Positions 45,355-58,633 are shown, counted from the stretch's first letter. The stretch: DNA of 64,000 nucleotides from an uncultured Clostridia bacterium (GCA_964403285.1 CAYOFG010000004.1:17292-81291); one strand, 5' to 3'. Made by a program: numbers and translations. Notes: generated by a model not told the origin, from the letters alone.

Positions 45355-46383
45355 ATGGTTATCATTATGAAATTTTACATAAATAAAACGGATTGGGAAA
45401 AATTTCTGGGACAGATTTCAAAAACTTATCATATTTATGCTCCCCAAGAGGTATATGGCGAACTTGCCTATCAGCTTTTGTCTCCAGAAAATGTTAGCCA
45501 GGCCATTTATGATACTTACCGGGCAGTCCAGCCTTTAAAGACCTTCTTCTCTTTACCGCAGGAAAAGGTGACAGTGGTTACTCCGCAGGCGGAGAAAACG
45601 ATAGTTCTGGGAGTTAAGAACTGTGACCTTAAAGCGGTTTCAGTTATGGATAAGATTTTTCTGGAAGGGGAATTTGTGGATCCTTTTTATAAACAGAGAA
45701 GAGAGACTACCCTTATTGTTTCCTCCGATTGTTATCAACCAAAGGATACGTGTTTTTGTGCTTTGCTAGACAATAATCCTTTTCCGGAAGGAGGGTTTGA
45801 TCTCAACCTCTCTCCGATAGATAATGGTTTTCTCATGGAAGTGGGTTCATCAAAGGGGGAAAGCTTTATCGCTCCTATGAGAGAAGATTTGAAAGAAGCA
45901 ACTCCTGACTTAATAGAGAAGAGAGAAAAGAAGAGAAAAACGGCGAAGCAAAGAGTGATAGAGGTGAACAGGGAATTCAGGACGGAGAGACCCTTCCCCA
46001 CTGTTGTAAAGGAAGAATATGCTTCGCCTGAGTGGGAAGAGGCAGCCAAAACCTGCGTGGAATGTGGAGCCTGCACCAACATATGTCCTTCCTGTTACTG
46101 TTTTCTCCTTGTGGATACAAAAGATGAGGGTAAATTTCCCAAAGTTAAGTTTTGGGATTCCTGCCAGCATACTGGCTTTGCCCGGGTCGCTGCGGGTGTC
46201 AATCCCCGGGCAAAATTATATGAAAGGTTGAGGAATAGATATTTGTGCAAGTATGAGTACAGGCCAGAAAATTTTGGAATTGTGGCCTGTACTGGTTGTG
46301 GTCGCTGCGTGGAAGCCTGCCAGGGAAAAATAGACAAAAGGGAAGTAATAAAGAAATTAGAAGAAAGCAAGGTGGAAACGTGA
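45355..46383 (+). CDS. AsrA/sulfhydrogenase-beta-like 4Fe-4S subunit
   Basis: GVKNCD, C..TCFC, CVECGACTNICPSCYCF and CTGCGRCVEAC motifs. Confidence 0.85.
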   Translation: MVIIMKFYINKTDWEKFLGQISKTYHIYAPQEVYGELAYQLLSPENVSQAIYDTYRAVQPLKTFFSLPQEKVTVVTPQAEKTIVLGVKNCDLKAVSVMDKIFLEGEFVDPFYKQRRETTLIVSSDCYQPKDTCFCALLDNNPFPEGGFDLNLSPIDNGFLMEVGSSKGESFIAPMREDLKEATPDLIEKREKKRKTAKQRVIEVNREFRTERPFPTVVKEEYASPEWEEAAKTCVECGACTNICPSCYCFLLVDTKDEGKFPKVKFWDSCQHTGFARVAAGVNPRAKLYERLRNRYLCKYEYRPENFGIVACTGCGRCVEACQGKIDKREVIKKLEESKVET

Positions 46384-47202
46384 ATGGTAGAGAACCCCTA
46401 TTTACCTATTGAAGCTAAAGTTGAGAAGATTATTGACGAGACTCCTAATATAAAGACTTTTGTGTTGAAGCCGAGCCGAAAAGTCAAATTCGAAACTGGC
46501 CAATTTATTCAACTGAGTATATCTGGTATTGGCGAGGCACCCTTTACTCCCTCCTCTTCTCCCTACCAGACTGAAAAAATAGAAGTAACCATAATGAAGG
46601 CCGGACTTCTGACCGGCAAATTGCATGAGATAAGAGAAGGAGAAATAGTAGGCATCCGCGGGCCTTATGGTCAGGGATATCCTTTTGATGATTTCTACAA
46701 TAAGGAAGTTCTAATTCTGGGTGGAGGAGTGGGCATGGCACCACTCAGGTCTTTGCTGCTTACGCTTCTGGAAAATGTTGATAAGTTCAAACGGATGGTT
46801 CTCTGTTATGGAGCGAAGAGTCCTGAGGATATAGTTTATAAGTATGCCTTTCCTGAATGGCAGAAAAAAAGGAAATTGGAAATCTTGAGAAGTGTGGATA
46901 AAGCAGCTCCTGGATGGAGTGAAACCGAAGGATTGGTGACTGTGCTTCTTGACAAAATCGAGATGGATTTAAGAAATTCTGTAGGTATAGTTTGTGGACC
47001 TCCCATTATGATGAAATTCGGGACGCTAAAGCTCCTGGATTTAGGATACAAACCTGAGAGTATCTATCTTTCTATGGAGAAAAATATGTCTTGCGGTCTG
47101 GGTAAATGTGGACACTGTGCACTGGGTAAATATTATGTTTGTAAAGATGGTCCGGTTTTCAGATACGATCTGATAAAGGATGTCCCGGATATCTGGTTGT
47201 AG
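46384..47202 (+). CDS. AsrB/sulfhydrogenase-gamma-like FAD/NAD(P)-binding 2Fe-2S subunit
   Basis: GQFIQL, GEAPF, GPYG, GGGVGMAPL, CGPPIMM, MSCGLGKCGHC and CKDGPVF motifs. Confidence 0.88.
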   Translation: MVENPYLPIEAKVEKIIDETPNIKTFVLKPSRKVKFETGQFIQLSISGIGEAPFTPSSSPYQTEKIEVTIMKAGLLTGKLHEIREGEIVGIRGPYGQGYPFDDFYNKEVLILGGGVGMAPLRSLLLTLLENVDKFKRMVLCYGAKSPEDIVYKYAFPEWQKKRKLEILRSVDKAAPGWSETEGLVTVLLDKIEMDLRNSVGIVCGPPIMMKFGTLKLLDLGYKPESIYLSMEKNMSCGLGKCGHCALGKYYVCKDGPVFRYDLIKDVPDIWL

Positions 47203-47508
47203 CTCGGGATTTGGTTCACTCGCTAACAATTTTTTGCTCTTTGAGCACCGCCAAAAATCTCTGTAGCTGCAGAGCGATAGCTCTGCGTCAGTGTAGGGGT
47301 GATCCCGATATATCGGGATGGTCGCCCGAAGGAGGGACGGCACAGAGTCCGTCCCCTACAGAGAAAGCAAAGCTTACGCTTTGCGGCTAGAATCTTCGAT
47401 TTTTGGCTAAAAATTCTAATGCTCGCTACACCAAATCCCTCACATTAAGGGATAGTTTGTCCTCGTTGTTTGGCTGGAATTCCACAAGCTTTTCACAGAC
47501 TATCTTTT
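47202..47508. repeat. Composite fold-back element family E' carrying GTAG-type REP hairpins
   Basis: Same scaffold as 22663-23013; the centre holds a D' hairpin (47263-47286) and a family C doublet (47293-47359). Confidence 0.85.
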
Positions 47509-47523
47509 GAAGATTGAAACAAG

Positions 47524-47997
47524 ATGAAAAAATTGTTTATTGATTTGGAAGGATGTTCTAAATGTAAAGACTGCACGGTCTCCTGCAGTTATTTCTACCA
47601 TCCTGACAATAATGGAGTAACCAATCTAAGGGAGTTGGCACATCTTGCTCTAATCTGCAGGCATTGTGAGGAAGCTCCCTGCGTTAAAGTCTGCCCGAAA
47701 GAAGCACTGGAAAAGCAGAAGGACGGAGTATTGAAAAGATATAATATGCGTTGCGTAGCGTGCAGGTCTTGCATGGTAGCTTGCCCTTTTGGAACGATTT
47801 ATCCAGAAACTATTCCCTACCTCGTTTCCAGTTGCGATTATTGTTTAGATCGGGCAGATGGAAAACCTCCTCTTTGTGTAGAGGACTGTCCGGAGAAGGC
47901 GATTAGATACGAAGAAGTTGAACAAGACTCAAAAAAGAACTATTTTGCTGTGGGAAAGAATCTAGTAGTCCACTATATTCCCTGGGAAAGAGAGTAA
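47524..47997 (+). CDS. 4Fe-4S dicluster protein (HycB-like)
   Basis: CSKCKDC, CRHCEEAPCVKVCP, CVACRSCMVACP and CDYC motifs. Confidence 0.85.
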   Translation: MKKLFIDLEGCSKCKDCTVSCSYFYHPDNNGVTNLRELAHLALICRHCEEAPCVKVCPKEALEKQKDGVLKRYNMRCVACRSCMVACPFGTIYPETIPYLVSSCDYCLDRADGKPPLCVEDCPEKAIRYEEVEQDSKKNYFAVGKNLVVHYIPWERE

Positions 47998-47999
47998 GA

Positions 48000-48929
48000 A
48001 TGGCAAAGACTCTATTTTACTTTATAGTATTTCCTGGGTTTTTGTTTACCGCATTGATAGGCTTGTTAGTTAGTTGGATTGACCGAAAGGTGACTGCCCG
48101 GGTGCAGTGGCGAGTAGGGCCGCCGATACTGCAACCCTTTTACGATTTTGTAAAGCTTTTGGGTAAGGAGACAATTGCTCCTCAAGCCGGCTCGAAATTG
48201 ACCTTTCTTTTTTCCCCGATTTTTGGATTAGCTGCAGTGACTATTGTTTCCACTATACTTTGGCTGGTGATGATTTCACCAGAGAAGACTTTTCTGGGAG
48301 ACTTGATTGTAGTTATTTATCTTTTGACAATTCCGTCCATAAGCATAATTATAGGTGGCTTCGCTTCGGGGAATCCCCTGGCTTCTTTAGGCGCTTCCCG
48401 GGAGATGAAAATGGTTTTAGCGTACGAGCTACCCTTCATTCTGGCTATTTTCACTCCCGTTATTAAAGCGCAAGGCATAATCAGGCTTGGCGATTTACTG
48501 CAATATCAATGGGCAAATAGTATCTTCCTCAATTCCTGGTCTGGATTTATTGCCTTTGTTGTGGCAATAATCTGTATGCAGGCAAAACTGGCTTTAGTCC
48601 CCTTTGACATTCCCGAGGCAGAAACAGAGATAATTGCCGGCCCATATATTGAATATTCTGGAGCTCCTTTGGCCCTTCACAAACTTACTCGCTGGATGAT
48701 GTTGTTTGTGGTCCCAATCTTTTTGGTAGTTATGTTTATGGGGGGCATTCTATTCTCCGGCTGGCATATTTTATGGGGCATACTAAAATACGTTCTCCTC
48801 TTGGTGATTATTATTCTAATACGTAATACTAATCCCCGACTTCGTATTGACCAGGCTATAAAGTTTTTCTGGGGACCGATGACAATCTTGGCAGTTATAG
48901 GCGTAATTCTTGCATTTTTGGGGATATAA
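48000..48929 (+). CDS. NuoH/MbhM-like membrane subunit
   Basis: DRKVTARVQWRVGPP, DFVKLLGKE and PFDIPEAETE motifs. Confidence 0.9.
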   Translation: MAKTLFYFIVFPGFLFTALIGLLVSWIDRKVTARVQWRVGPPILQPFYDFVKLLGKETIAPQAGSKLTFLFSPIFGLAAVTIVSTILWLVMISPEKTFLGDLIVVIYLLTIPSISIIIGGFASGNPLASLGASREMKMVLAYELPFILAIFTPVIKAQGIIRLGDLLQYQWANSIFLNSWSGFIAFVVAIICMQAKLALVPFDIPEAETEIIAGPYIEYSGAPLALHKLTRWMMLFVVPIFLVVMFMGGILFSGWHILWGILKYVLLLVIIILIRNTNPRLRIDQAIKFFWGPMTILAVIGVILAFLGI

Positions 48930-48931: not shown

Positions 48932-49354
48932 ATGGACCTTAAGACAAAGGCATTAACTAAATCCATATGGGTCTTCCATTTTGCAGCCGCTTCTTGTAAT
49001 AACTGTGATATAGAAATTCTCGATGCTCTAACTCCTAAGTTTGATCTGGAAAGGTTCGGTATTCTTTTGGTGGGAAGTATTCGTCATGCTGATGTTATCC
49101 TGGCTACGGGTGCAATTTCGCACAAAGCAGCAGTGAGGTTAAAAAGACTCTATGAGCAGGCTCCCCAACCCTGTCTGGTTGTGGCAGTCGGTTCCTGCGC
49201 CTGTTCAATGTGTATATTCCGGGATTCTTATAACATGGCTGGACCTTTTGATGGACTTGTTCCTGTTCATGTATATATCCCCGGTTGCCCACCAAAACCA
49301 GAAGCAATAATTATGGGAGTAGTCAAACTGGTTAAGGCATTAAAGAAAGGTTGA
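48932..49354 (+). CDS. Group 4 [NiFe]-hydrogenase small subunit
   Basis: SCNNCDIE, AVGSCAC and YIPGCPPKPE motifs. Confidence 0.9.
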   Translation: MDLKTKALTKSIWVFHFAAASCNNCDIEILDALTPKFDLERFGILLVGSIRHADVILATGAISHKAAVRLKRLYEQAPQPCLVVAVGSCACSMCIFRDSYNMAGPFDGLVPVHVYIPGCPPKPEAIIMGVVKLVKALKKG

Positions 49355-49355: not shown

Positions 49356-49787
49356 TTGATGGCAGAAGAAATTTTGGCAAGAATAAAAGATGAATTCTCT
49401 AAAAAGATTCTTAAAGTTTTTGAGAAGTCTCGTCGTCGAATATATATTGACTTTGACTCAAAGGATATACCCCAAGTGGTAAGTTTCCTATTCCGGGAAA
49501 TGGGAGGACGATTAGCTACTGCCACGGGAATAGATGCCCGGAAGAATATAGAAATACTCTACCACTTTTCCTTTGATAGTTCAGGAACAATCGTTTCTCT
49601 ACGCACTCTGATTGATAAAAACAATCCTGAAATAGAATCAGTAACTCCCATAGTAAAAGGAGCGGAATGGATAGAAAGAGAGATACACGAACTTTTGGGA
49701 GTGAATTTCAGGAATCATCCCAACTTGAAAAGGCTACTCTTATTTGAAGATTGGCCTGAAGGCAAGTATCCTCTCAGGAGAGAATAG
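49356..49787 (+). CDS. NuoC/MbhK-like subunit
   Basis: EILYHF, WIEREIHELLGVNF.NHP and YPLR motifs. Confidence 0.88.
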   Translation: MMAEEILARIKDEFSKKILKVFEKSRRRIYIDFDSKDIPQVVSFLFREMGGRLATATGIDARKNIEILYHFSFDSSGTIVSLRTLIDKNNPEIESVTPIVKGAEWIEREIHELLGVNFRNHPNLKRLLLFEDWPEGKYPLRRE

Positions 49788-50986
49788 TGGCTAAGACAAT
49801 TATTCCTGTGGGCCCATACCATCCTTTGCAAGAAGAGCCAGAATTTTTCAAACTGCTTGTGGAAGGCGAAAAAGTCCTCGACCTGGAGATAGAGATAGGA
49901 TATAATCACCGGGGAATTGAGAAAATTGCTGAGTCAAAGAGCTATGACCAGGTAGTTTTCTTGGTGGAGCGTGTTTGTGGTATCTGCTCCACATCACACC
50001 CCATTGCCTGTGTAAATGCACTGGAAGATTTAGCCGATATTAAAGTCCCTGAGCGGGCACTATATATTCGAAGTATTATTGCTGAACTGGAAAGGCTCCA
50101 TTCGCATCTACTCTGGCTGGGTTTGGCTGGCCACTTCATAGGTTATAATACAGTATGGATGTGGGCGTGGAAATATCGGGAGCCTGTTCTGGACATTTGT
50201 GAAAGAATTTCAGGCAATCGTAACCATTATGCAATGATGAAAGCAGGCGGTGTCAGAAGAGATATTGACAATAATGATATTCCGCACATAATGAAAATGG
50301 TAGATAATTTACTACCCGGGCTCGATTTGTTTATGGGGGCAGTAATGGACGACCCGGTAATTGCTCTCAGAACAAAAGGAGTGGGGGTTTTGACCAAGAA
50401 GGATGTAATTGAGTATGGAGCGCTTGGTCCCACTGCTCGGGCTTCAGGTGTAGCAATAGACGTTAGAAAAGATGAACCCTATGCTGCCTATCCTCTGGTG
50501 GAATGGAAATTAATAACGCGGGAAGAAGGAGATGTCTTTGCCAAGATTGTGGTTCGTGTACTGGAAATGTATGAGGCAGTGAAGATTATCAAGCAGTGCT
50601 TGGAGAAGTTGAAAATAGTTGGTGGGGAGATAGATGCTAAAGTTAAAGAGATTCCTCCTGGCGAGGGGATTGGCAGAGGCGAGGCACCTCGGGGAGAAGT
50701 ACTCCATTATATCAGAAGTGACGGAAGTAACCGACCAGTAAGATATAAAATAAGGGCTCCCAGTTATATGAACGTTCCCACTAATCAGAAATCTGTAGTT
50801 GGGGGAACTATTTCCGATGCCACAATAACCCTGGCTGCTGTAGACCCGTGCTACTGTTGTACTGAAAGAGTAGCAGTTGTTGATAGGAAGACCGGAAAGA
50901 AAGGGTTGACCGGTAAAGAGTTGATAAAGTTATCACAAGAAAAGACTTTAAGACTTAAGAGGGATATTGGTATGATGAAGGGATAG
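49787..50986 (+). CDS. Group 4 [NiFe]-hydrogenase large subunit
   Basis: GYNHRGIEK, L1 ERVCGICSTSH, EAPRGE, L2 DPCYCCTER followed by a cleavable C-terminal extension; HycI-type protease in the operon. Confidence 0.92.
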   Translation: MAKTIIPVGPYHPLQEEPEFFKLLVEGEKVLDLEIEIGYNHRGIEKIAESKSYDQVVFLVERVCGICSTSHPIACVNALEDLADIKVPERALYIRSIIAELERLHSHLLWLGLAGHFIGYNTVWMWAWKYREPVLDICERISGNRNHYAMMKAGGVRRDIDNNDIPHIMKMVDNLLPGLDLFMGAVMDDPVIALRTKGVGVLTKKDVIEYGALGPTARASGVAIDVRKDEPYAAYPLVEWKLITREEGDVFAKIVVRVLEMYEAVKIIKQCLEKLKIVGGEIDAKVKEIPPGEGIGRGEAPRGEVLHYIRSDGSNRPVRYKIRAPSYMNVPTNQKSVVGGTISDATITLAAVDPCYCCTERVAVVDRKTGKKGLTGKELIKLSQEKTLRLKRDIGMMKG

Positions 50987-51140: not shown

Positions 51141-52955
51141 ATGAATTTGTTGCTATATTTGATTATTATTCCATTTGTAGTGGGACTATTCTGCTTGCTG
51201 GTTCCCAAAAAGTTAAGTAAGATTAGAGAGTGGTTGGCCATAGGTGGTGGATTAGCGACTCTATATTTCGCTATAATCGGTTTTCTTAGTAAGCCTGTTG
51301 AGTGGTTTTATTATAATCTACTCCTTTTGAAAGTTGACAATCTTAGTGGATTTATTCTTTTAGCTATCGGTCTTTTTGGGGTTTTGATTGTTCTTTATTC
51401 ACTAAAGTTTATGGCAGGGAGGGAGCGCCTGAATGAATATTATGCTTATCTTCTCTGGACAATCGGTGGAGCTTGTGGAGCAATTTTAGCAAATAATTTG
51501 GTGCTCCTTCTTGCTTTCTGGGGATTTCTCGGCTTGACCCTGTATCTACTTATTGGCATAGGTGGGCCAGAGGCTACTCCAGCAGCAAAGAAGACATTTA
51601 TTATTGTCGGTGGCTCTGATTGTCTGATGATTTTGGGAATTGGCATTGTTTGGCTTTTGACTGGTTCTTTCCAGATGGACAAAATTAGTGTGTCCTTAAT
51701 GGGTACGTTACCCACAATTGCATTCATATCGTTAGCTATTGCTTCCTTTGCCAAAGCTGGAGTGATGCCCATGCATACCTGGATTCCAGATATGGCAATG
51801 ACTGCACCCGTGAGTATAACCGGGTTCCTGCCTGGCTCTTTGGATAAATTATTGGGAATCTACTTTCTTGCTAGAATATCAATCGATATTTTCGTTATGA
51901 ATAACCCGATGGGGAAGTTACTTTTGATTATTGGCGCGGTAACGATTGTTGGTGGGGTTATGATGGCTCTCGTTCAGCATGATTTGAAGAGGTTACTTTC
52001 CTACCATGCGGTAAGCCAGGCTGGTTATATGGTCTTAGGCATAGGCACGGGAAATCCTATTGGGATTGCTGGTGGGCTGTTTCATATGTTAAATAATGCT
52101 ATTTATAAATTTGGTCTATTTCTCTCTGGAGGAGCGGTAGAAAATAAGGCTCGCACTACAGATTTGGATAGATTGGGTGGCCTGGCTAAACTGATGCCTG
52201 TCACTTTCATTACCTGTTTGATTGCTGCATTGTCAATTTCTGGCGTGCCACCTTTTAATGGCTTTGTTTCCAAGTGGATGGTTTACCAGGGAGTGATAGA
52301 ACTGGGCAAAGGCGGCGATAAGTTATGGATTGTCTGGTTGGTAGCAGCAATGTTTGGTAGTGCTTTAACATTGGCTAGTTTTATGAAATTGATGCACTGT
52401 GTATTTTTGGGTTCCCCATCAGCGACTACTCAATCGTCGGGCGCAAAACGAAACGAAGTCTCATTTGTTATGTGGCTTCCTATGGTAATACTGGCAGTAT
52501 TATGTATAACTTTTGGCGTTTTTACATATAGCGTTCCTTTGAAAAATTTTATTCTCTCCGCAGTTCCCGGAGTTTCTTTCCTTGGTTTCTGGTCGCCAGG
52601 CCTCGCTACTCTACTGATTATTATGGGAATAATTTTGGGAATAATTATTTACTTCATAGGTAATATGAAGGGTGTGCGGTTAGATACTACTTATGTCGGC
52701 GGCGAGATAATTTCCCGGGATAGCCGTGTAAGTGGGGTGGAGTTCTATGATACGATAAGGGATCTGGGAACGTTTAAGGAAATTTATAGACAGGCGGAAA
52801 AGAAACTTTTTGATATTTATGATTGGGGTGCAAAATTTATCTTTTTCCTTATTCGCGGATTAAGAAGAATCCATAGTGGAGCGTTGCCTACATATCTGTT
52901 TTGGTCTCTTTTTGGTATGTTGATTCTTTTTATAATTATGATGTTGAGGATTTAG
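51141..52955 (+). CDS. NuoL/MrpA/D-like ion-translocating membrane subunit
   Basis: AKAGVMPMHTWIPD, QHDLKRLLSYH, HMLNNAIYK and GVPPFNGFVSKW motifs. Confidence 0.88.
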   Translation: MNLLLYLIIIPFVVGLFCLLVPKKLSKIREWLAIGGGLATLYFAIIGFLSKPVEWFYYNLLLLKVDNLSGFILLAIGLFGVLIVLYSLKFMAGRERLNEYYAYLLWTIGGACGAILANNLVLLLAFWGFLGLTLYLLIGIGGPEATPAAKKTFIIVGGSDCLMILGIGIVWLLTGSFQMDKISVSLMGTLPTIAFISLAIASFAKAGVMPMHTWIPDMAMTAPVSITGFLPGSLDKLLGIYFLARISIDIFVMNNPMGKLLLIIGAVTIVGGVMMALVQHDLKRLLSYHAVSQAGYMVLGIGTGNPIGIAGGLFHMLNNAIYKFGLFLSGGAVENKARTTDLDRLGGLAKLMPVTFITCLIAALSISGVPPFNGFVSKWMVYQGVIELGKGGDKLWIVWLVAAMFGSALTLASFMKLMHCVFLGSPSATTQSSGAKRNEVSFVMWLPMVILAVLCITFGVFTYSVPLKNFILSAVPGVSFLGFWSPGLATLLIIMGIILGIIIYFIGNMKGVRLDTTYVGGEIISRDSRVSGVEFYDTIRDLGTFKEIYRQAEKKLFDIYDWGAKFIFFLIRGLRRIHSGALPTYLFWSLFGMLILFIIMMLRI

Positions 52956-52959: not shown

Positions 52960-53508
52960 ATGTTTGAATTATACGTTCTTCTATTATTTATGATCCTGGG
53001 AGCAATAATTGCTGTGGAGATAAAGGATCTGCTCTCTTCAGTAGTCGCTGTTGGTGCAGTAGGCTTGGGGTTATCCGTTGCTTTCTTGATTTTAAAAGCG
53101 CCTGATTTGGCTATCACCCAGTTGGTTGTGGAGATATTGTGTCTAATCATCTTAATTCGGGCAACAATAAGGAGAGATATCCCCCCACAAGAGCGAGGCA
53201 AAGAAGTTGTTGGCTCGATTATGGTTCTTTTGTTCATTGGAGGCTTTCTATTTTTTGCTTACCGCGCTTTGAAAGATTTACCATCGTTCGGGCATCCGAT
53301 AATGAGGGTTAGCCAGAATTATCTGGCTGAGGGATTGAAAAAGACAGGCGCAACCAATCTGGTTGCTTCAGTGATATTAGATTTCCGTGCCTACGATACT
53401 TTAGGCGAAGCAACTATACTTTTTACTGCGGTGGTTGGAGTCTTGGTGGTTTTACGCCGGGTTGGGCGTAAGAAAGTCGATGAGCCTGTGGAAAAGGAAA
53501 ATGAATAA
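52960..53508 (+). CDS. MrpA C-terminal/DUF4040-MnhB-like membrane subunit
   Basis: KAPDLAITQ, NLVASVILDFRAYDTLGEATIL motifs. Confidence 0.85.
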   Translation: MFELYVLLLFMILGAIIAVEIKDLLSSVVAVGAVGLGLSVAFLILKAPDLAITQLVVEILCLIILIRATIRRDIPPQERGKEVVGSIMVLLFIGGFLFFAYRALKDLPSFGHPIMRVSQNYLAEGLKKTGATNLVASVILDFRAYDTLGEATILFTAVVGVLVVLRRVGRKKVDEPVEKENE

Positions 53509-53953
53509 AAAAACTAAAGAGCCAGGTATGACCCTGATTGTTAAGACGATTACACGCCTTACAGTAGGGTTAATTCTTCTATATGGAATATATATCGTCA
53601 CCCATGGTCACCTTTCGCCAGGGGGTGGCTTTGCCGGCGGGGTAATTATAGCTTTATCTTTTATACATCTTATGCTCGCCTTTGGCAAAGATTTGGCATT
53701 AAAAAAATTGAGTGAAAGTTTAGCTTCTTTCTTTGAAAGCTTTGGGGCGATAATGTTTTTGACCATTGGACTTCTGGGTTTTATAGGAGGATATTTCTTC
53801 TTTAATTTCTTTTCCAAGGGTAAACCGTTTAATCTTTTTAGTGCAGGGATTATTCCCTTGTGTAATATTGCTATATGTCTTAAAGTCGGCGTGGGGTTAT
53901 TTGCCGTGTTTGTTGCTTTAATCCTTTTAGAGATACCTACTAAGAAAGAGTAA
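53501..53953 (+). CDS. mrpB: MnhB/MrpB-like subunit (probable start 53501)
   Basis: HGHLSPGGGFAGG and NIAICLKV motifs. Confidence 0.85.
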   Translation: MNKKTKEPGMTLIVKTITRLTVGLILLYGIYIVTHGHLSPGGGFAGGVIIALSFIHLMLAFGKDLALKKLSESLASFFESFGAIMFLTIGLLGFIGGYFFFNFFSKGKPFNLFSAGIIPLCNIAICLKVGVGLFAVFVALILLEIPTKKE

Positions 53954-53956: not shown

Positions 53957-54292
53957 ATGATTTATTTAATGTGTCTTGTTTTATTCTGTATCGGTGTATA
54001 TTGTATTTTGGTAAAGAGAAACCTTATCAAGATTATCATTGGCATAGGGATTGTTGAGTATGCGGTCAACCTATTTTTCGTACTGGTTGGTTATCGTGCG
54101 CAAGGACGTGCGCCAATTCTTGCTAAAGACCAGGTAGTTCAAAATATGGTGGATCCTTTGCCTCAAGCATTAGTTTTGACAGCTATTGTTATTGGTTTGG
54201 CTGTTACTGCTTTGATTGTCGCTATTGCTATAAGAATCTATGAAAAGTATGGAACTTTCGATATTACTAAAATCAGGAGATTACGAGGATAA
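53957..54292 (+). CDS. mrpC: MnhC/MrpC-like subunit
   Basis: RNLIKIIIG and DPLPQALVLTAIVIG motifs. Confidence 0.9.
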   Translation: MIYLMCLVLFCIGVYCILVKRNLIKIIIGIGIVEYAVNLFFVLVGYRAQGRAPILAKDQVVQNMVDPLPQALVLTAIVIGLAVTALIVAIAIRIYEKYGTFDITKIRRLRG

Positions 54293-54295: not shown

Positions 54296-55816
54296 ATGAA
54301 TATGGCGCTATTACCCCTTACCCCTAACTTATTACCATTGTTTGTTGCTATCCCATTAGGTTCTGCTTTTATAGTTTCCCTTTTGGGAAAAAAGTTGAGA
54401 GGATTTTCTGATACTTTTTCCAATTTAGGTACTTTTTCTTTGCTTTCTCTCTCTCTGCTTTCTCTCCTTTTGATTAAACGTTTGGGAACTGTCGTCTATA
54501 AAGTCGGCGGATGGATACCACCTATTGGAATCTGTATGGTTCTGGATAGTTTGACTAGTTTTATGCTGATCACAGTCAACTTGATCGCATTTTTGGTTAC
54601 CATTTATTCTATAAGTTATATGGAAAGATATACGGATAAATGGAAATTCTATACCCTGTTCTTGTTGATGCTCGCTGGCATGAACGGAGTAATCATCACC
54701 GGGGATTTATTTAATCTATTTGTTTTTCTAGAGATTGCTTCTATATCAAGTTATGCTCTGGTTGCTTTTGGGGTAGAACATGAAGAGCTTGAGGCTTCTT
54801 TTAAATATACGGTGATGGGAAGTATAGCTTCCTCTTTCATACTGTTGGGTATTGCCTTATTATATAGTTATACCTCCAGTCTTAATATGGCAGACATTTC
54901 TCGCACTTTGGCACAAGGAAAAAGCAGTCAAGTAGTCTTTTTTGTCAGCGTTCTATTTCTTATGGGTTTTGGATTAAAAGCAGCTTTAGTGCCATTCCAT
55001 GCCTGGCTACCTGACGCCCATCCTTCGGCACCTGCCCCAATCTCAGCTATGCTTTCCGGGGTATTGATTAAGGCTCTGGGTGTTTATGCGTTAGCCAGAA
55101 TCTTCTTCAACGTGCTGGGAATGACTGCTATTTCTTCTTCTATTTTAATGGGCTTGGGAACTATCTCTATGGTTCTGGGTGGGCTCCTGGCATTGGGACA
55201 GGAAGACATCAAAAGATTATTTGCTTATTCCAGTATCAGCCAAATAGGTTATGTTATCTTGGGCATAGGTATGGGAACGCACCTGGGAATTTTAGCCGGA
55301 CTATTCCACCTGTTTAATCACGCCACCTTTAAGTCTTTACTATTCTTAAATTCAGGCTCAATAGAATACGCTACCGGGACAAGAGATTTAAGGAAAATGG
55401 GCGGTCTGACTTCTAAAATGCCAGTTACCGGCTACTCTTCTTTGGTCGGCTCGATGTCTATTTCTGGCATACCCCCTCTGAGTGGTTTCTGGAGCAAATT
55501 ATTGATTATTTTAGCTGCAATTCAAGCCAAGCATTTTATCTTTGCTGCTATCGCTGTCCTGGTGAGCATATTAACATTAGCATACTATTTGAAAGTACAG
55601 AGATTAGCGTTTTTTGGAGAGTTAAAAGATTCGTTGAAAGGGATAAAAGAAGTTCCTCTAACAATGAAGTTATCGATGATTACCTTATCTATCATTTGCT
55701 TATTGGGAGGGTTACTTTTGATTCCTGGGATACAGAAGAATTTTCTTAGTTTAGCCACTGAAGTGTTAACCAATGGCAATAATTATGCACAGACCATTTT
55801 CGGGAGTATAAAGTAA
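54296..55816 (+). CDS. mrpD: MnhD/MrpD-like antiporter subunit
   Basis: DLFNLFVFLEI, KAALVPFHAWLPDAHPSAP, DIKRLFAYSS and GIPPLSGFWSK motifs. Confidence 0.9.
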   Translation: MNMALLPLTPNLLPLFVAIPLGSAFIVSLLGKKLRGFSDTFSNLGTFSLLSLSLLSLLLIKRLGTVVYKVGGWIPPIGICMVLDSLTSFMLITVNLIAFLVTIYSISYMERYTDKWKFYTLFLLMLAGMNGVIITGDLFNLFVFLEIASISSYALVAFGVEHEELEASFKYTVMGSIASSFILLGIALLYSYTSSLNMADISRTLAQGKSSQVVFFVSVLFLMGFGLKAALVPFHAWLPDAHPSAPAPISAMLSGVLIKALGVYALARIFFNVLGMTAISSSILMGLGTISMVLGGLLALGQEDIKRLFAYSSISQIGYVILGIGMGTHLGILAGLFHLFNHATFKSLLFLNSGSIEYATGTRDLRKMGGLTSKMPVTGYSSLVGSMSISGIPPLSGFWSKLLIILAAIQAKHFIFAAIAVLVSILTLAYYLKVQRLAFFGELKDSLKGIKEVPLTMKLSMITLSIICLLGGLLLIPGIQKNFLSLATEVLTNGNNYAQTIFGSIK

Positions 55817-56310
55817 TGAAAAGCAGGATTGTTCTATTTTTTCTGGCATTTTTGGTCTGGCTCGGCTTGACCTGGCCACCTGATTGGCAACATATTTCAA
55901 TTGGAATTCTGGCAGCAATATTTGTAGCCTTTATGACCGGGGATATGTTTACCAAGCGTCCACATCTTTTTAGACATCCCAGGCGATATTTCTGGTTGCT
56001 CTATTATTTACCTATTTTTATCTGGGAATGCATAAAGGCAAATTTCGATGTGGCGTATCGGGTAGGTCATCCAGATCTTCCCATTAATCCAGGAATAGTC
56101 AAAATAAAGACAAGTCTAAAATCGGACACAGGTCTTACATTTCTGGCTAATTCCATTACGCTTACGCCCGGCACATTAAGTGTGGATGTGAACCAGGAAG
56201 AAGGAGTTCTCTATGTCCACTGGATCGATGTGAAGGATAAAGATGTAGAAAAGGCAACGAAAATGATTGCAGGTAAATTCGAACCCATTTTAAGGAGAAT
56301 TTTCGAATAG
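55816..56310 (+). CDS. mrpE: MnhE/MrpE-like subunit
   Basis: ANFDVA, PGIV and ANSITLTPGTL motifs. Confidence 0.9.
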   Translation: MKSRIVLFFLAFLVWLGLTWPPDWQHISIGILAAIFVAFMTGDMFTKRPHLFRHPRRYFWLLYYLPIFIWECIKANFDVAYRVGHPDLPINPGIVKIKTSLKSDTGLTFLANSITLTPGTLSVDVNQEEGVLYVHWIDVKDKDVEKATKMIAGKFEPILRRIFE

Positions 56311-56453: not shown

Positions 56454-56816
56454 ATGAACAGGAGGTTACGCTGGCTAATAGGATTATTAATAATAATTGC
56501 ATTATTTGTAGGAATTATATTCTATCCTCCCGCTTCACTCCTTGAGTGGCAGTCGGTTAGTCTTATGCGCTTTTTCTTTATCCTTTCGCTCTGTTGCGTA
56601 TTTTGTCTATATCGCATTTTGAGAGGTCCCACTTCAGCGGACAGGGTAGTTGCCATTGATATATTAGGAATATTGATTGTTGGTTTTTGTGCTGTTTTGG
56701 GAATTCCTACAGGAAGACCCTGGTATATTGATATTGGCATTGCCTGGGCTTTGCAGAGTTTCATAGGCACTATAGCATTAGCTAAATACCTTGAAGGGAA
56801 AGGATTTGAGGAATAA
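56454..56816 (+). CDS. mrpF: MnhF/MrpF-like subunit (N-terminally extended)
   Basis: GPTSADRVVAID and FIGTIALAKYL motifs. Confidence 0.85.
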   Translation: MNRRLRWLIGLLIIIALFVGIIFYPPASLLEWQSVSLMRFFFILSLCCVFCLYRILRGPTSADRVVAIDILGILIVGFCAVLGIPTGRPWYIDIGIAWALQSFIGTIALAKYLEGKGFEE

Positions 56817-57151
56817 TGATAGGAATAATTGCGTACATATTTATTGCGGTTGGGCTTATGTTTGATCTCTTTGGCTGCATTGGTTTGGTGAGGCTTCCCG
56901 ACGTGTACAACCGCCTTCAGGCTTCTACCAAGTGCGTAACTTTGGGCACTTGTAGTATTCTATTTGGACTATTTCTATTCCGGGGATTTACAGACGCGGG
57001 AATTAAAGCATTGCTATGTATTGTCTTTATAATTTTGACCGCTCCCGTATCTGCCCACGCTATTGCTCGAGGAGCTCATATTTCGGGAGTGAAACTCTGG
57101 GATAAATCAGTCTGCGATAAATATGAAGAAGACAGACAAACAGATGCTTGA
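56816..57151 (+). CDS. mrpG: MnhG/MrpG-like subunit
   Basis: GLVRLPDVYNRLQASTK and TAPVSAHAIAR motifs. Confidence 0.9.
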   Translation: MIGIIAYIFIAVGLMFDLFGCIGLVRLPDVYNRLQASTKCVTLGTCSILFGLFLFRGFTDAGIKALLCIVFIILTAPVSAHAIARGAHISGVKLWDKSVCDKYEEDRQTDA

Positions 57152-57165
57152 CAGGAGCGCAGGGA

Positions 57166-57792
57166 ATGAGGTATCCTAAATTACGGGAATTAAAAGAAGC
57201 AATTAGAGCAGTCATTAAAGGTCCATATACAACGAAGTTCCCCCGTGAGCCGCATGTGCCTCAAGAGAAGTTTCGCGGTAAGCCTGAATTTTATGAGAAA
57301 GACTGCGTGGGTTGTTGTGCTTGTGCCGAAGTCTGTCCGGCGAGAGCGATAGATGTCATAGATGATATTGCAGCAAAGCCACCTATACGAAAACTAGTTT
57401 TGCATTTTGATATCTGTATTTTCTGCGGCCAGTGTCAGGCAAATTGTATTACAGAAAAGGGAATCAAACTCACCGGAGAATACGATCTGGCTCTATTTAA
57501 CAGGAAAGAGGCGGAAGTCAAGGTAGAGAAGGAATTATTAGTTTGTGAAGAGTGTGGTAAAGTAATTGGAGCCAAAGACCACCTTTGCTTTTTGGCGAGT
57601 AAACTCGGACCCCTGGCATATGGTAATATGCCTTTACTACTCACCGCATCGGGAGAGCTACAATTAGTAAAGGCCCCACCAATAATAGGTCCTCCTTTGA
57701 GGAGGGCACACATCTTTCGCCTTCTCTGTCCCAGGTGTCGTCGAGAAGTTCTGCTGGAAGATATCTGGGGCAAAAAGAGAACCGAAGAATAA
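57166..57792 (+). CDS. NuoI/MbhN-like 2x4Fe-4S subunit (probable start 57166)
   Basis: YTTKFP, CVGCCACAEVCP and CIFCGQCQANC, plus CEEC/CPRC. Confidence 0.88.
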   Translation: MRYPKLRELKEAIRAVIKGPYTTKFPREPHVPQEKFRGKPEFYEKDCVGCCACAEVCPARAIDVIDDIAAKPPIRKLVLHFDICIFCGQCQANCITEKGIKLTGEYDLALFNRKEAEVKVEKELLVCEECGKVIGAKDHLCFLASKLGPLAYGNMPLLLTASGELQLVKAPPIIGPPLRRAHIFRLLCPRCRREVLLEDIWGKKRTEE

Positions 57793-57806
57793 TTGTCTAA
57801 TAATTA

Positions 57807-58265
57807 ATGGAACTGACAAAACTCAAAAATAGACTCCAGGGCAAAGTATCGATTGTAGGTATAGGGAATCGTTTACGTGGCGATGATGGGGTCGGTCCAG
57901 AAATAATAAAGAGAGTAGAAAATCCCCTCCCTTCTCTACTCTTGTTTGATGTCGGTGAAGCTCCGGAAAACTATTTAGGAAAGATTGTTAAACAGAAGCC
58001 AGATGCAATAGTTTTTATTGATGCGGTTGACTTCGATGCTCCTCCGGGAACGATAAAGGTTGTAGAAACGGACGATATAAGGAATGAGTCTCTTTCTACG
58101 CATAATGTGAGCTTGAATCTGGTAGCGAAATATTTGCAGAAAGAGACCTCTGCAGATGTATTTCTTTTGGGCATCCAGCCAGAAACTACAGAATTTGGAA
58201 GAGAAATCTCCCGGCCGGTAAGAGAAAGTTTGGGAAAAATTGTTAAAATGTTAGAAAGAGTTTGA
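57807..58265 (+). CDS. hycI: Hydrogenase maturation endopeptidase (HycI type)
   Basis: GIGNRLRGDDGVG, APENY, IDAVDF and STHN motifs. Confidence 0.92.
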   Translation: MELTKLKNRLQGKVSIVGIGNRLRGDDGVGPEIIKRVENPLPSLLLFDVGEAPENYLGKIVKQKPDAIVFIDAVDFDAPPGTIKVVETDDIRNESLSTHNVSLNLVAKYLQKETSADVFLLGIQPETTEFGREISRPVRESLGKIVKMLERV

Positions 58266-58285
58266 AACTTTCCTTGGAGGTCTAT

Positions 58286-58633
58286 ATGCATGAATTGGGT
58301 ATAGCTCAGGATTTATTCCGCATAGTAGAGGATAAAGCAAAAGAGAATAATCTGAAAGCAGTCACTAAGATTGTAGTAGTAGTTGGAGAAGATTCGGGAA
58401 TTGAAGAGGATTTTCTGAAGCATAATTTAGTGGATTACCTTATGCCCGGTACTATTGCCGAGAAGGCAGAATTGGAAATTACAAAAGAGCTGTTACAGGC
58501 AAGATGCCAGGCTTGTGGAAAAGAAATAGATTTCCCGCAAAGGTCCTCTTTAGAATGTCCCGATTGCGGAGACAACAATTTAGAAATCACCCAGGGAAAA
58601 AATGTTTACATACGAACTATCGAAGGCGAATAA
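58286..58633 (+). CDS. hypA: Hydrogenase nickel chaperone (probable start 58286)
   Basis: MHELGIA, CQAC and CPDC motifs. Confidence 0.92.
   Translation: MHELGIAQDLFRIVEDKAKENNLKAVTKIVVVVGEDSGIEEDFLKHNLVDYLMPGTIAEKAELEITKELLQARCQACGKEIDFPQRSSLECPDCGDNNLEITQGKNVYIRTIEGE

What the first reader, a model, noticed from the sequence alone, without database searches (positions are those of the whole stretch)
45355..58633. Membrane-bound group 4 hydrogenase with Mrp module, headed by an NAD(P)-linked AsrA/AsrB-like pair
Seen: one Rex-boxed operon of AsrA-like, AsrB-like (FAD/NAD, 2Fe-2S), 4Fe-4S, NuoH, small, NuoC, large (Ni ligands intact), NuoL-like, MrpA'/B/C/D/E/F/G, NuoI, hycI and hypA. There is no separate group 3 large/small subunit and no AsrC. 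Known: Mbh/Ech-type enzymes couple ferredoxin to H2; AsrA/B and HydB/G-type pairs are the pyridine-nucleotide module of soluble enzymes; H2 to NAD+ is modestly exergonic. Inference: an ion-translocating H2:NAD(P)+ (or Fd:NAD plus H2) complex that could replace Rnf in this acetogen-like organism. Similar operons may already be listed as group 4g of unconfirmed function, so the novelty is functional.
Basis: partly seen in the sequence, partly recalled or inferred. Interest (0 to 1): 0.75.

Follow-up and report, generated by a model that had tools for sequence, protein, structure and literature searches.

The report
Hun-type NAD(P)H-linked membrane hydrogenase operon
This is an intact copy of the already published but never purified 16-subunit "Hun" membrane hydrogenase; it carries a flavoprotein pair that most likely links hydrogen to NAD(P)H rather than, or as well as, ferredoxin.

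Summary

The architecture is not new. It is the 16-gene "Hun" complex of Glass et al. (bioRxiv 10.1101/536078), called "Mbh-Mrp-oxidoreductase type" by Méheust et al. HydDB places it in group 4g. It has its diagnostic CGIC...CYCC nickel motifs.

All 60 related genome loci with enough upstream sequence carry the AsrA/AsrB-like pair directly upstream, across more than ten phyla.

The pair is closest to the beta and gamma subunits of Pyrococcus NADPH-dependent sulfhydrogenase I (PDB 9NEZ; E 5e-43 and 1e-51). Its FAD, NAD(P) and 2Fe-2S motifs are invariant in 68 orthologues. Rex operators are strongly enriched at hun promoters.

My best reading (about 0.55) is a reversible, ion-coupled NAD(P)H:H+ oxidoreductase wired like formate hydrogenlyase. 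The published reading, ferredoxin only, remains possible.

"Replaces Rnf" is not supported: published relatives have both. The function has not been tested biochemically. The interest lies in the function, not the architecture, and is moderate.

The parts
44620..45243 (+). rex, the redox-sensing repressor gene, directly upstream of the operon
   Evidence: NCBIfam Rex NF003995, 260.6 bits against a cutoff of 126. rex is also adjacent to hunA in L001-L004, L008, L025, L029 and L032, and divergent in L063, L071 and L072.
45259..45288 (+). sigma-70-like promoter TTGACG-18-TATAAT
   Evidence: 11 of 12 consensus positions match, the best site in the region. This is a consensus match only.
45331..45348 (.). 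Rex operator TTGTGAAAAGTTTCACAA, a perfect 18-bp palindromic consensus
   Evidence: Boxes with at most 2 mismatches lie within about 100 nt of hunA in 21 of 59 loci. In four more loci they lie upstream of rex-hunA. Only 35 such boxes occur in 1.25 Mb of loci.
45355..46383 (+). hunA: AsrA / sulfhydrogenase-beta-like Fe-S protein with 15 invariant Cys (about three [4Fe-4S] clusters)
   Evidence: Pfam Fer4_22. PDB 9nez_B, sulfhydrogenase 1 beta, E 5.3e-43 over residues 12-327. NCBIfam ShyB, HydB and AsrA all score below their cutoffs.
46384..47202 (+). hunB: AsrB / sulfhydrogenase-gamma-like FAD, NAD(P) and [2Fe-2S] flavoprotein
   Evidence: Pfam FAD_binding_6, NAD_binding_1 and DHODB_Fe-S_bind. 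PDB 9nez_C, E 1.3e-51. GGGxGxAPxR, CGPPxMM and four Cys are invariant in 68 orthologues, and position 145 is always R or K.
47203..47523 (.). lineage-specific 321-nt spacer. It holds a hairpin of about 230 nt (47206-47439) and then the right end of a repeated element of about 190 nt (47436-47523).
   Evidence: RNA fold -125.5 kcal/mol, z -5.7. No Rfam family matches. The spacer is absent from L002 and L003, where hunB and hunC overlap by 10 nt. L004 shares part of it.
47524..47997 (+). hunC: HycB/CooF-type connector ferredoxin with 16 Cys (four [4Fe-4S] motifs)
   Evidence: Pfam Fer4_11. PDB hits include HycB3 and HycB4 of HDCR (7qv7) and HycB of FHL (7z0s_B).
48000..48929 (+). hunD: NuoH/MbhM-like membrane subunit
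   Evidence: Pfam NADHdh, E 9e-67.
48932..49354 (+). hunE: hydrogenase small subunit (NuoB-like)
   Evidence: Pfam Oxidored_q6. Cys at CNNC, GSC and GCPP are present.
49356..49787 (+). hunF: NuoC-like subunit
   Evidence: Pfam Complex1_30kDa.
49787..50986 (+). hunG: [NiFe] large subunit with CGIC and CYCC motifs and a 38-aa C-terminal extension
   Evidence: Pfam Complex1_49kDa and NiFeSe_Hases. The best PDB hit is MbhL 6cfw_L (E 3.6e-88), then HycE 7z0s_E.
51132..52955 (+). hunH: NuoL/MbhH-like antiporter-type subunit. The real start is probably the ATG at 51141.
   Evidence: Pfam Proton_antipo_M. The best PDB hit is MbhH 6cfw_H, E 2.4e-46.
52960..53508 (+). hunI: fused MbhD/MbhE-like subunit (C-terminal part of MrpA)
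   Evidence: Pfam MbhD and MbhE.
53435..53953 (+). hunJ: MnhB-like subunit. The listed ORF start overlaps hunI, so the real start is probably internal.
   Evidence: Pfam MnhB.
53957..54292 (+). hunK: MnhC/NuoK-like subunit
   Evidence: Pfam Oxidored_q2.
54296..55816 (+). hunL: MnhD-like second antiporter-type subunit
   Evidence: Pfam Proton_antipo_M, E 4e-75.
55816..56310 (+). hunM: MnhE-like subunit
   Evidence: Pfam MNHE.
56454..56816 (+). hunN: MnhF-like subunit
   Evidence: Pfam MrpF_PhaF.
56816..57151 (+). hunO: MnhG-like subunit
   Evidence: Pfam PhaG_MnhG_YufB.
57148..57792 (+). hunP: NuoI/HycF-like 2x[4Fe-4S] subunit with a C-terminal extension that carries four further invariant Cys
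   Evidence: The best NCBIfam hit is the FHL iron-sulfur subunit. The best PDB hit is HycF 7z0s_F, E 2.1e-19, ahead of MbhN 6cfw_N.
57807..58265 (+). hycI-type maturation endopeptidase
   Evidence: Pfam HycI.
58262..58633 (+). hypA nickel-insertion chaperone, the last gene of the operon
   Evidence: Pfam HypA.
58634..58659 (+). weak terminator-like hairpin followed by a T run, just after hypA
   Evidence: Fold. A separate promoter-like site for nikR lies at 58662-58691.

Best explanation
Identity (near certain): this is a hun operon. It encodes the published 16-subunit Mbh-Mrp-type group 4 [NiFe]-hydrogenase, followed by hycI and hypA. It is repressed by Rex and sits directly downstream of a Wood-Ljungdahl gene cluster.

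Mechanism (inferred): HunB is an FNR-fold flavoprotein with FAD, an NAD(P) site and a [2Fe-2S] cluster. It exchanges a hydride with NAD(P)H. Electrons then run through the clusters of HunA (about three [4Fe-4S]), HunC (four [4Fe-4S], HycB/CooF type), HunP (two [4Fe-4S], HycF type) and HunE (the proximal cluster) to the Ni-Fe site in HunG.

This wiring copies formate hydrogenlyase and the CODH-Mbh complexes. There, a soluble dehydrogenase is plugged onto the hydrogenase through a HycB-like connector. Here the dehydrogenase is a sulfhydrogenase beta/gamma-type NAD(P)H module.

The membrane arm consists of HunD, HunH and HunI-O, with two antiporter-like subunits. It couples the small free-energy change to H+/Na+ movement. 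The enzyme would therefore be reversible:
- At very low H2 it disposes of NAD(P)H as H2, possibly drawing on the ion gradient.
- At high H2 it makes NAD(P)H and adds to the gradient.

Rex control means derepression when NADH/NAD+ is high. That points to reductant disposal as the usual role.

Shown here: gene content, motifs, homology, conserved linkage and Rex sites. Inferred: physical attachment of HunAB, NAD(P)H use, ion coupling and direction.
For: - The gene order hunA-P is identical to the published Hun cluster, and HunG has its diagnostic CGIC/CYCC motifs.
- HunA and HunB lie directly upstream in 60 of 60 loci with at least 4.7 kb of upstream sequence. These loci span Clostridia, Omnitrophota, Elusimicrobiota, Planctomycetota, Bacteroidota, Chlamydiota, Verrucomicrobiota and others.
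- The hunB-hunC gap is at most 20 nt, or the genes overlap, in most loci.
- HunA and HunB distance matrices track that of HunG (r 0.75-0.77, 0 of 999 permutations reach this). HunC tracks HunG about as well (r 0.80).
- The full-length best solved homologues are the beta and gamma subunits of NADPH-dependent sulfhydrogenase I, 9nez_B and 9nez_C (E 5e-43 and 1e-51). The next hits for HunB are NADH-linked PyrK and NfnA-type proteins.
- In HunB, GGGxGxAPxR, CGPPxMM, the GEAPFTPSS flavin loop and four [2Fe-2S] Cys are invariant in 68 orthologues. Position 145 is always R or K, followed by T or S. It aligns with the Arg of the SHI-gamma 'TAR' motif, where NADH-specific PyrK has Ala.
- HunP is closer to HycF than to MbhN, and HunC is HycB/CooF-like. 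These are the connector pair used by FHL.
- About 30 of the 35 Rex boxes with at most 2 mismatches in 1.25 Mb of loci lie at hun or rex-hun promoters. rex is adjacent to hun in about 12 loci from at least four phyla.
- Bird et al. report that the hydrogenase is cotranscribed with the adjacent oxidoreductase in Atribacteria (PMC6469976).
Against: - No biochemical data exist for any Hun complex in the literature searched.
- The authors who named Hun proposed ferredoxin as the donor.
- NAD(P)H/H2 offers only about 18 kJ/mol at standard state. That is little for a complex with NuoH plus two antiporter-like subunits, and it favours a lower-potential co-donor.
- HunC and HunP could still dock ferredoxin.
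- Rex also controls ferredoxin-dependent hydrogenases in other Firmicutes (my own knowledge), so Rex sites do not prove NADH use.
- A conserved basic residue hints at NADPH, which Rex does not sense.
- In this genome a 321-nt hairpin-rich spacer separates hunB from hunC, so co-transcription is not shown here.
- No multimer model could be run.
Confidence: 0.55

Rival explanations
1. The published view: Hun is a ferredoxin-oxidising, H2-evolving, ion-pumping Mbh. HunABC merely accept electrons from ferredoxin and relay them, and pyridine nucleotides are not substrates.
For: - Glass et al. propose this.
- Ace Lake and Elusimicrobia papers treat the enzyme as a ferredoxin-coupled Mbh.
- HunG and HunH are closest to the ferredoxin-dependent P. 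furiosus Mbh.
- The energetics of ferredoxin to H+ suit a large pumping module better.
Against: - A pure Fe-S relay has no need of a flavoprotein.
- HunB keeps every FNR-type FAD and NAD(P) motif, invariant across 68 orthologues from many phyla.
- Its nearest solved relative is an NADPH-oxidising subunit.
- Mbh itself takes ferredoxin directly at MbhN, without any such module (my own knowledge of 6CFW).
Confidence: 0.2
2. A three-way enzyme. [quoted passage not shown] Alternatively it acts as an Rnf-like ferredoxin:NAD(P)+ oxidoreductase with H2 as a third partner. The membrane arm balances the energetics.
For: - The long branched-looking Fe-S complement gives room for a second donor site: four clusters in HunC plus an extra 4-Cys site in HunP.
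- A 2026 study modelled SHI-beta/gamma homologues next to group 4b hydrogenases as a three-branch network (PMC13582414).
- It would solve the weak driving force of NAD(P)H alone.
Against: - HunB has the single FNR-type flavin of SHI-gamma, PyrK and NfnA. This is not a known bifurcating site (plus my own knowledge).
- No third catalytic subunit is present in this operon.
- Relatives keep Rnf as well.
Confidence: 0.12
3. HunAB is a separate soluble enzyme, for example an NAD(P)H-dependent polysulfide or other reductase, or an NAD(P)H:ferredoxin oxidoreductase. It is only co-regulated with the hydrogenase and is not bound to it.
For: - SHI beta/gamma were once assigned sulfur reductase activity.
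- Bird et al. mention reduction of sulfur compounds.
- In this window a 321-nt spacer separates hunB from hunC.
- In L006 a 3.8-kb insert does so.
Against: - Linkage is 60 of 60, in fixed order.
- hunB and hunC overlap or nearly abut in most loci.
- The pair is co-inherited with HunG.
- A HycB-type connector is always present between the pair and the hydrogenase core.
- No catalytic partner such as AsrC, or the alpha/delta subunits of group 3b, was found among the window ORFs scanned.
Confidence: 0.08

Closest known systems
Hun complex (Glass et al., bioRxiv 10.1101/536078). Also called the 'Mbh-Mrp-oxidoreductase type' (Méheust et al., 10.1101/765248) and described as the Saganbacteria Mbh + Mrp + asrA/asrB/cooF region (PMC6349859).
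   Same: - The same 16 genes in the same order.
- The same CGIC/CYCC motifs in the large subunit.
- The same absence of AsrC.
- The closest genomes include a Clostridia MAG from the same Hydrate Ridge site (L003; 87% HunG identity; also MeTr, Rex and hun; L004 adds FocA).
   Different: Nothing architectural. This copy carries three lineage-specific hairpin inserts inside the operon, and hycI, hypA and nikR follow it. The published functional assignment is ferredoxin. I favour NAD(P)H.
Pyrococcus furiosus membrane-bound hydrogenase Mbh (group 4d, PDB 6CFW)
   Same: It is the best solved match for the large subunit (E 3.6e-88) and for the first antiporter-like subunit (E 2.4e-46). It is also joined to an Mrp-like module.
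   Different: - Mbh has no HunA, HunB or HunC and takes ferredoxin directly.
- Hun has a second antiporter-like subunit (HunL).
- Hun's NuoI-type subunit is closer to HycF than to MbhN.
Beta and gamma subunits of Pyrococcus furiosus soluble sulfhydrogenase I (group 3b, PDB 9NEZ)
   Same: They are full-length homologues of HunA and HunB (E 5e-43 and 1e-51). They share the FAD, NAD(P), [2Fe-2S] and Fe-S cluster motifs.
   Different: - The Hun proteins are not equivalogs: NCBIfam scores of 166-187 bits lie far below the cutoffs of 600-750.
- They are attached to a membrane-bound group 4 core rather than to group 3b alpha/delta subunits.
E. coli formate hydrogenlyase FHL-1 (group 4a, PDB 7Z0S), and the Thermococcus formate- or CO-dependent Mbh-Mrp clusters
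   Same: They share the modular logic of a soluble dehydrogenase, a HycB-type connector, a HycF-type subunit and the hydrogenase core. HunP's best solved match is HycF, and HunC matches HycB-type proteins.
   Different: The plugged-in dehydrogenase is an NAD(P)H flavoprotein pair, not FdhH or CODH. E. coli FHL-1 has no Mrp module.
Anaerobic sulfite reductase AsrABC
   Same: AsrA and AsrB are homologues of HunA and HunB.
   Different: Scores fall below the equivalog cutoffs (135 against 323, and 216 against 289). The catalytic siroheme subunit AsrC is absent.
Respiratory complex I (analogy only)
   Same: It combines an NAD(P)H-oxidising module, a NuoB/C/D/I-type module, and NuoH with antiporter-like subunits.
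   Different: The NAD(P)H module is unrelated to NuoEFG. The acceptor or donor is H+/H2 at a real Ni-Fe site, not quinone.

Membership tests
Hun complex (Glass et al.) | Sixteen genes hunA-P in the published order: AsrA-like, AsrB-like, 4Fe-4S, NuoH, small, NuoC, large, NuoL-like, seven Mrp-like, NuoI-like | tested here: met
   compared with the description.
Hun complex (Glass et al.) | HunG metal-binding motifs CGIC (L1) and CYCC (L2) | tested here: met
   VCGICSTSH and DPCYCCTER. They are invariant in 26 homologues.
Hun complex (Glass et al.) | AsrC absent from the cluster | tested here: met
   None of the window ORFs scanned is AsrC-like.
Hun complex (Glass et al.) | HydDB assigns the large subunit to group 4g | not testable with these tools
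   HydDB is not available. The published classification of HunG is 4g, but distant from other 4g sequences. Group 4g is reported to be polyphyletic.
Group 4 energy-converting [NiFe]-hydrogenase | Large subunit with both CxxC Ni-Fe motifs, small subunit with proximal-cluster Cys, NuoH-like and antiporter-like membrane subunits | tested here: met
Group 4 energy-converting [NiFe]-hydrogenase | Maturation by a C-terminal endopeptidase | tested here: met
   There is a 38-aa extension after CYCCTER, and hycI and hypA are in the operon. Cleavage itself was not tested.
Group 4 energy-converting [NiFe]-hydrogenase | H2 turnover coupled to ion translocation | not testable with these tools
   This needs vesicle or proteoliposome assays.
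Mbh proper (group 4d, P. furiosus type) | Ferredoxin docks directly on the NuoI-type subunit, with no added soluble dehydrogenase module | tested here: not met
   HunA, HunB and HunC are present and conserved. HunP is closer to HycF than to MbhN.
Sulfhydrogenase (group 3b) beta/gamma diaphorase pair | Beta subunit with Fer4_22 and further clusters. Gamma subunit with FAD, NAD(P) and [2Fe-2S] motifs. | tested here: met
Sulfhydrogenase (group 3b) beta/gamma diaphorase pair | Scores above the NCBIfam equivalog cutoffs for HydB/ShyB and HydG/ShyC | tested here: not met
   166 and 169 bits against cutoffs of 750 and 690. 180 and 187 bits against cutoffs of 650 and 600.
Sulfhydrogenase (group 3b) beta/gamma diaphorase pair | Encoded together with group 3b alpha and delta subunits | tested here: not met
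   The only hydrogenase large and small subunits in the window are the group 4 pair.
Anaerobic sulfite reductase AsrABC | AsrA and AsrB score above the equivalog cutoffs, and the siroheme subunit AsrC is adjacent | tested here: not met
   TIGR02910: 135 bits against 323. TIGR02911: 216 bits against 289. No AsrC is present.
Rex regulon | Operator TTGTGAAnnnnTTCACAA in the promoter region, and a Rex protein encoded in the genome | tested here: met
   A perfect box lies at 45331-45348 and rex at 44620-45243. Enrichment across loci is shown.
Rex regulon | NADH-sensitive binding of Rex to the operator | not testable with these tools
   This needs EMSA or footprinting with and without NADH.

The most novel reading that the evidence does not exclude
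Hun is a proton-reducing counterpart of complex I. It would be a single membrane complex that couples NAD(P)H:H+ oxidoreduction, in either direction, to H+/Na+ translocation. It would be the first energy-converting hydrogenase that works on pyridine nucleotides. It would give low-energy fermenters, syntrophs and some acetogens a one-step route between NAD(P)H and H2, without ferredoxin or flavin-based bifurcation. At least about 600 species-level genomes would encode it.
Probability: 0.4. Interest if true: 0.8.

Novelty: new member of a known kind. Interest (0 to 1): 0.45.

Why it matters
How strict anaerobes reoxidise NAD(P)H to H2 against an unfavourable potential is a central problem of low-energy life. 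The known solutions are confurcating [FeFe]-hydrogenases, or reverse Rnf combined with Ech or Mbh.

A membrane hydrogenase with its own NAD(P)H module would be a third, single-enzyme solution. It would also be a living analogue of the step between Mbh and complex I.

The family is widespread. At least 597 of the pattern matches in GTDB species genomes encode a relative. It is common in subsurface phyla such as Atribacterota, Omnitrophota and Elusimicrobiota.

Metagenome papers routinely annotate it as a ferredoxin-coupled Mbh, or miscount it as 'sulfhydrogenase' or 'AsrAB'. Kosmotoga isolates reportedly carry it, so the question can be tested directly.

For this particular window the finding is a confirmation, not a discovery.

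Tried and rejected
- Rfam gathering scan of the whole window: no family matched, so the intra-operon hairpins are not known RNAs.
- I looked for the molybdopterin gene that others report between hunB and hunC. In L006 the 3.8-kb insert encodes a pilin-like protein and unknown proteins, not a molybdopterin protein. In L037 the extra ORF has no Pfam hit.
- Exact-protein look-up of HunG found only a 2.9-kb Logan contig (ERR4334733). It gave no extra context.
- The structural paper on SHI (PubMed 40570843) is not held, so its NADP-contact residues could not be read. The R/K145 argument rests on alignment and on general FNR-family knowledge.
- Literature searches for any biochemical work on Hun or on the Kosmotoga enzyme returned only the Glass et al. 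preprint.
- I rejected 'AsrAB = sulfite reductase': there is no AsrC and the scores are below the cutoffs.
- I rejected 'Mbx/Mbs-like sulfur reductase': the Ni ligands are intact and HycI and HypA are present.
- I rejected 'the pair is a separate transcription unit' as a general statement, because the genes overlap in most relatives. It stays open for this genome.
- Multimer modelling, HydDB classification and whole-genome checks for rnf, hydABC and the ATP synthase c subunit were not possible with the tools and the single window.

Full report
**Observation**

The + strand between 45355 and 58633 carries 18 intact, closely packed ORFs.
- an AsrA-like Fer4_22 protein
- an AsrB-like protein with FAD_binding_6, NAD_binding_1 and DHODB_Fe-S_bind
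- a Fer4_11 polyferredoxin
- NuoH, a hydrogenase small subunit, NuoC and a [NiFe] large subunit
- a NuoL-like subunit and an MbhD/E-like protein
- MnhB, C, D, E, F and G
- a NuoI-like protein, HycI and HypA

The large subunit reads VCGICSTSH near its N-terminus and DPCYCCTER near its C-terminus, followed by a 38-residue extension. The four Cys are invariant in 26 homologues. The small subunit keeps its cluster Cys.

Upstream lies a promoter-like TTGACG-18-TATAAT site. Next comes a perfect Rex operator, TTGTGAAAAGTTTCACAA, at 45331-45348. The gene immediately upstream (44620-45243) is rex itself, at 260 bits against a cutoff of 126. A weak terminator-like hairpin follows hypA, and nikR has its own promoter-like site.

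It folds into a hairpin of about 230 nt (z -5.7).

**Genomic setting**

The 45 kb upstream hold a nearly complete Wood-Ljungdahl set:
- Methyl branch: Fhs (16012-17709), MetF, FchA and FolD.
- Carbonyl branch: CooC, CooS, a CooF-like protein, an FAD/NAD oxidoreductase, AcsB, AcsC, AcsV, a second CooC, AcsD and AcsE.
- FocA lies between this set and rex.

Downstream are NikR, a beta-barrel porin-like protein, DUF4198 and a CbiM/Q/O-type metal transporter. This is probably a nickel supply unit.

No AsrC, group 3 hydrogenase or rnf gene was found among the window ORFs scanned; six + strand ORFs of 110 aa or more were left unscanned. 'Acetogen-like' is therefore a fair description of the gene content. 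The rest of the genome is unseen.

**Is the linkage to the AsrA/AsrB-like pair conserved?**

A profile of the large subunit found at least 597 relatives among GTDB species genomes. The 80 best (65-87% identity) were fetched with 10-kb flanks. tblastn with all window proteins gave these results:
- All 60 loci with at least 4.7 kb of upstream sequence carry both genes directly upstream, in the same order.
- In 40 of 43 loci with enough downstream sequence, the whole Mrp-like set and the NuoI-like gene follow.
- By their record titles, the loci come from Clostridia, Omnitrophota, Elusimicrobiota, Planctomycetota, Bacteroidota, Chlamydiota, Verrucomicrobiota, Auribacterota and others.
- In most loci the AsrB-like gene and the 4Fe-4S gene overlap or lie at most 20 nt apart.
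- Pairwise distance matrices of the two proteins correlate with that of the large subunit (r 0.75-0.77; none of 999 permutations as high). The 4Fe-4S connector correlates about as well (r 0.80).

The pair is thus an inherited part of the unit, not a chance neighbour.

The 321-nt spacer in the window is a lineage-specific insertion. It is absent from the closest Clostridia MAGs L002 and L003, partly shared with L004, and replaced in L001 by a different copy of a repeated element.

**What it is called**

The cluster is already in the literature.
- Glass et al. (bioRxiv 10.1101/536078) describe a 16-subunit 'Hun' complex, HunA-P, with exactly this order. They found it in Atribacteria and in a Firmicutes MAG from Hydrate Ridge, and report it in Omnitrophica, Elusimicrobia, Bacteroidetes and Kosmotoga isolates. 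HydDB put HunG in group 4g, though far from other 4g sequences. They single out the CGIC/CYCC motifs that this window also has.
- One of my closest loci (L003, 87% HunG identity, also with MeTr, Rex and hun) carries an isolate name from the same site.
- Matheus Carnevali et al. saw hydrogenase, Mrp, cooF, asrA and asrB together in Saganbacteria (PMC6349859).
- Méheust et al. call it the 'Mbh-Mrp-oxidoreductase type', with 'the function of this oxidoreductase unknown', in predicted acetogenic Elusimicrobia (10.1101/765248).
- Bird et al. report cotranscription with the adjacent oxidoreductase. [quoted passage not shown]
- Ace Lake studies annotate members simply as 'group 4g Mbh, Mrp-linked' and ferredoxin-coupled.
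- I found no biochemical study.

**How it most likely works**

HunA and HunB are full-length homologues of the beta and gamma subunits of P. furiosus sulfhydrogenase I (PDB 9NEZ; E 5e-43 and 1e-51). That enzyme oxidises NADPH. The next hits for HunB are NADH-linked PyrK and NfnA-type proteins. They fall below the NCBIfam equivalog cutoffs for HydB/ShyB, HydG/ShyC and AsrA/AsrB. They are therefore a distinct branch of that family, not sulfhydrogenase or sulfite reductase subunits proper.

Across 68 HunB orthologues the following are invariant:
- the nucleotide loop GGGxGxAPxR
- the CGPPxMM motif
- the flavin loop GEAPFTPSS
- the four [2Fe-2S] Cys

Position 145 is always Arg or Lys, followed by Thr or Ser. 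It aligns with the Arg of 'TAR' in SHI-gamma, whereas NADH-specific PyrK has Ala there. By general FNR-family knowledge this hints at NADPH, but I give it little weight.

The Fe-S complement is as follows:
- HunA has 15 invariant Cys.
- HunC has 16 Cys in four CxxCxxCxxxC-type motifs.
- HunP has eight cluster Cys plus four further invariant Cys in a C-terminal extension.

HunP's best solved match is HycF of E. coli formate hydrogenlyase, ahead of MbhN. HunC matches HycB-type connectors. HunG and HunH are closest to MbhL and MbhH.

The simplest model is therefore an FHL-style assembly in which the plugged-in dehydrogenase is an NAD(P)H flavoprotein pair. The electron path runs NAD(P)H - FAD - [2Fe-2S] (HunB) - HunA - HunC - HunP - HunE - Ni-Fe (HunG). 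The membrane arm is HunD, HunH and HunI-O.

**Direction and energetics**

These figures are established values, not tool results. E0' is -414 mV for H+/H2 and -320 mV for NAD(P)+/NAD(P)H. H2 to NAD(P)+ therefore yields about 18 kJ/mol at standard state. The reverse reaction becomes neutral or favourable only at H2 of a few Pa or less, or with a highly reduced NADPH pool. Either direction could move roughly one ion per pair of electrons, or the ion gradient could drive NAD(P)H oxidation.

Rex releases its operator when NADH/NAD+ is high. Rex control therefore argues for induction under reductive stress, which means reductant disposal as H2.

Rex control is not peculiar to this genome:
- Of 35 boxes with at most two mismatches in 1.25 Mb of fetched loci, 23 lie within 150 nt of hunA.
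- Most of the remaining boxes lie upstream of rex-hunA or just beyond that limit. About 30 of the 35 are at hun promoters.
- rex is adjacent to hun in about a dozen loci from several phyla.

**Weak points**

- Everything about NAD(P)H use, physical attachment and ion coupling is inferred.
- The free-energy span is small for a complex with NuoH and two antiporter-like subunits. This keeps ferredoxin alive as the donor or a co-donor.
- Rex also governs ferredoxin-dependent hydrogenases in other Firmicutes (my own knowledge).
- Co-transcription across the 321-nt spacer is not shown for this genome.
- The 'replaces Rnf' idea is contradicted in the relatives whose genomes have been described. Acetogenic Elusimicrobia, Ca. 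Gorgyraea, Ca. Saelkia and Ca. Tritonobacter lacicola (my locus L029) all encode Rnf as well.

**Verdict**

The finding is real and correctly read at the level of gene content. It is a further member of a named but uncharacterised family. The added value of this check is fourfold:
- Linkage of the pair to the hydrogenase is universal in the loci examined.
- The pair belongs to the solved NADPH-dependent SHI beta/gamma type, and its nucleotide and flavin motifs are invariant.
- The connector architecture is like that of formate hydrogenlyase.
- Rex control is conserved across phyla.

Together these make NAD(P)H coupling more likely than the published ferredoxin-only scheme, without proving it.

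Noticed in passing
window 47203-47523; L004 and L001 at the hunB-hunC junction: A 321-nt insertion sits inside an otherwise overlapping gene junction. It holds a near-perfect long hairpin of about 230 nt with ends GGGATTTGGT.../...ACCAAATCCC (-125 kcal/mol, z -5.7). L004 shares its ends. L002 and L003 lack it. It looks like a small mobile or REP-like element. Its effect on operon expression is unknown.
   Followed up: partly
window 29850-30050, 34488-34690, 47436-47523; L001 7531-7745: A repeated intergenic element of about 190 nt carries terminal inverted repeats TAAAAGATAGTTTGT / ACAAACTATCTTTTA. Copies end just before the start codons of cooC and hunC and lie upstream of acsB. A related genome (L001) has a full copy at the hunB-hunC junction. 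It could be a MITE or a shared regulatory or RNA-processing element that links the Wood-Ljungdahl and hun operons.
   Followed up: partly
window 1767-1838, 22818-22894, 51005-51090: Palindromic repeats of the GTCATTGCGAGG...CAATCTCG type. One fills the hunG-hunH spacer and produces the spurious 70-aa ORF at 51008-51220.
   Followed up: partly
window 56331-56393: Another strong hairpin (-34 kcal/mol, z -6.2) lies in the 143-nt hunM-hunN spacer. Three of the operon's junctions therefore carry structured inserts in this lineage.
   Followed up: partly
window 57148-57792 (HunP residues 133-197): The NuoI/HycF-like subunit has a C-terminal extension with four Cys (CxxC ... CxxC) that are invariant in 43 orthologues. 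This suggests an extra metal site, either a Zn ribbon or an Fe-S site, that the Hun papers read here do not mention.
   Followed up: partly
window 58718-63937: nikR is followed by a beta-barrel porin-like protein, DUF4198 and CbiM/Q/O-type transporter genes. This is a probable NikR-controlled nickel uptake unit placed right after the hydrogenase operon. The porin-like gene, and the MotA/TolQ and OmpA-like genes at 2118-3601, suggest an outer membrane, although the closest MAGs are labelled Clostridia.
   Followed up: no
window 16012-44623: A near-complete Wood-Ljungdahl cluster (Fhs, MetF, FchA, FolD, CooC, CooS, CooF-like, AcsB, AcsC, AcsV, CooC, AcsD, AcsE) with FocA at its end. No formate dehydrogenase is in the window. 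A MeTr-like gene also lies 1-2 kb upstream of hunA in L066 (Omnitrophica) and L070 (Clostridia).
   Followed up: partly
L006 3152-6965: This is the only locus where hunAB are separated from hunC. The 3.8-kb insert encodes a protein with a pilin-type N-methylation motif and two proteins without a Pfam match. It is not the molybdopterin protein that others report at this position.
   Followed up: yes
window 171-1724: A 517-aa Glu/Lys-rich, coiled-coil-like protein with no Pfam match. It accounts for the extreme purine skew of the first 2 kb (GC skew 0.48, AT skew 0.45). It lies upstream of MotA/TolQ- and OmpA/MotB-like genes.
   Followed up: no
literature (PMC9324843) against HunB: Metagenome surveys that count 'sulfhydrogenase' by loose matches to the gamma subunit (35% identity, 50% coverage) would probably also pick up HunB. 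HunB scores 180-187 bits on the HydG and ShyC models. Group 3b may therefore be overcounted where Hun is common.
   Followed up: no
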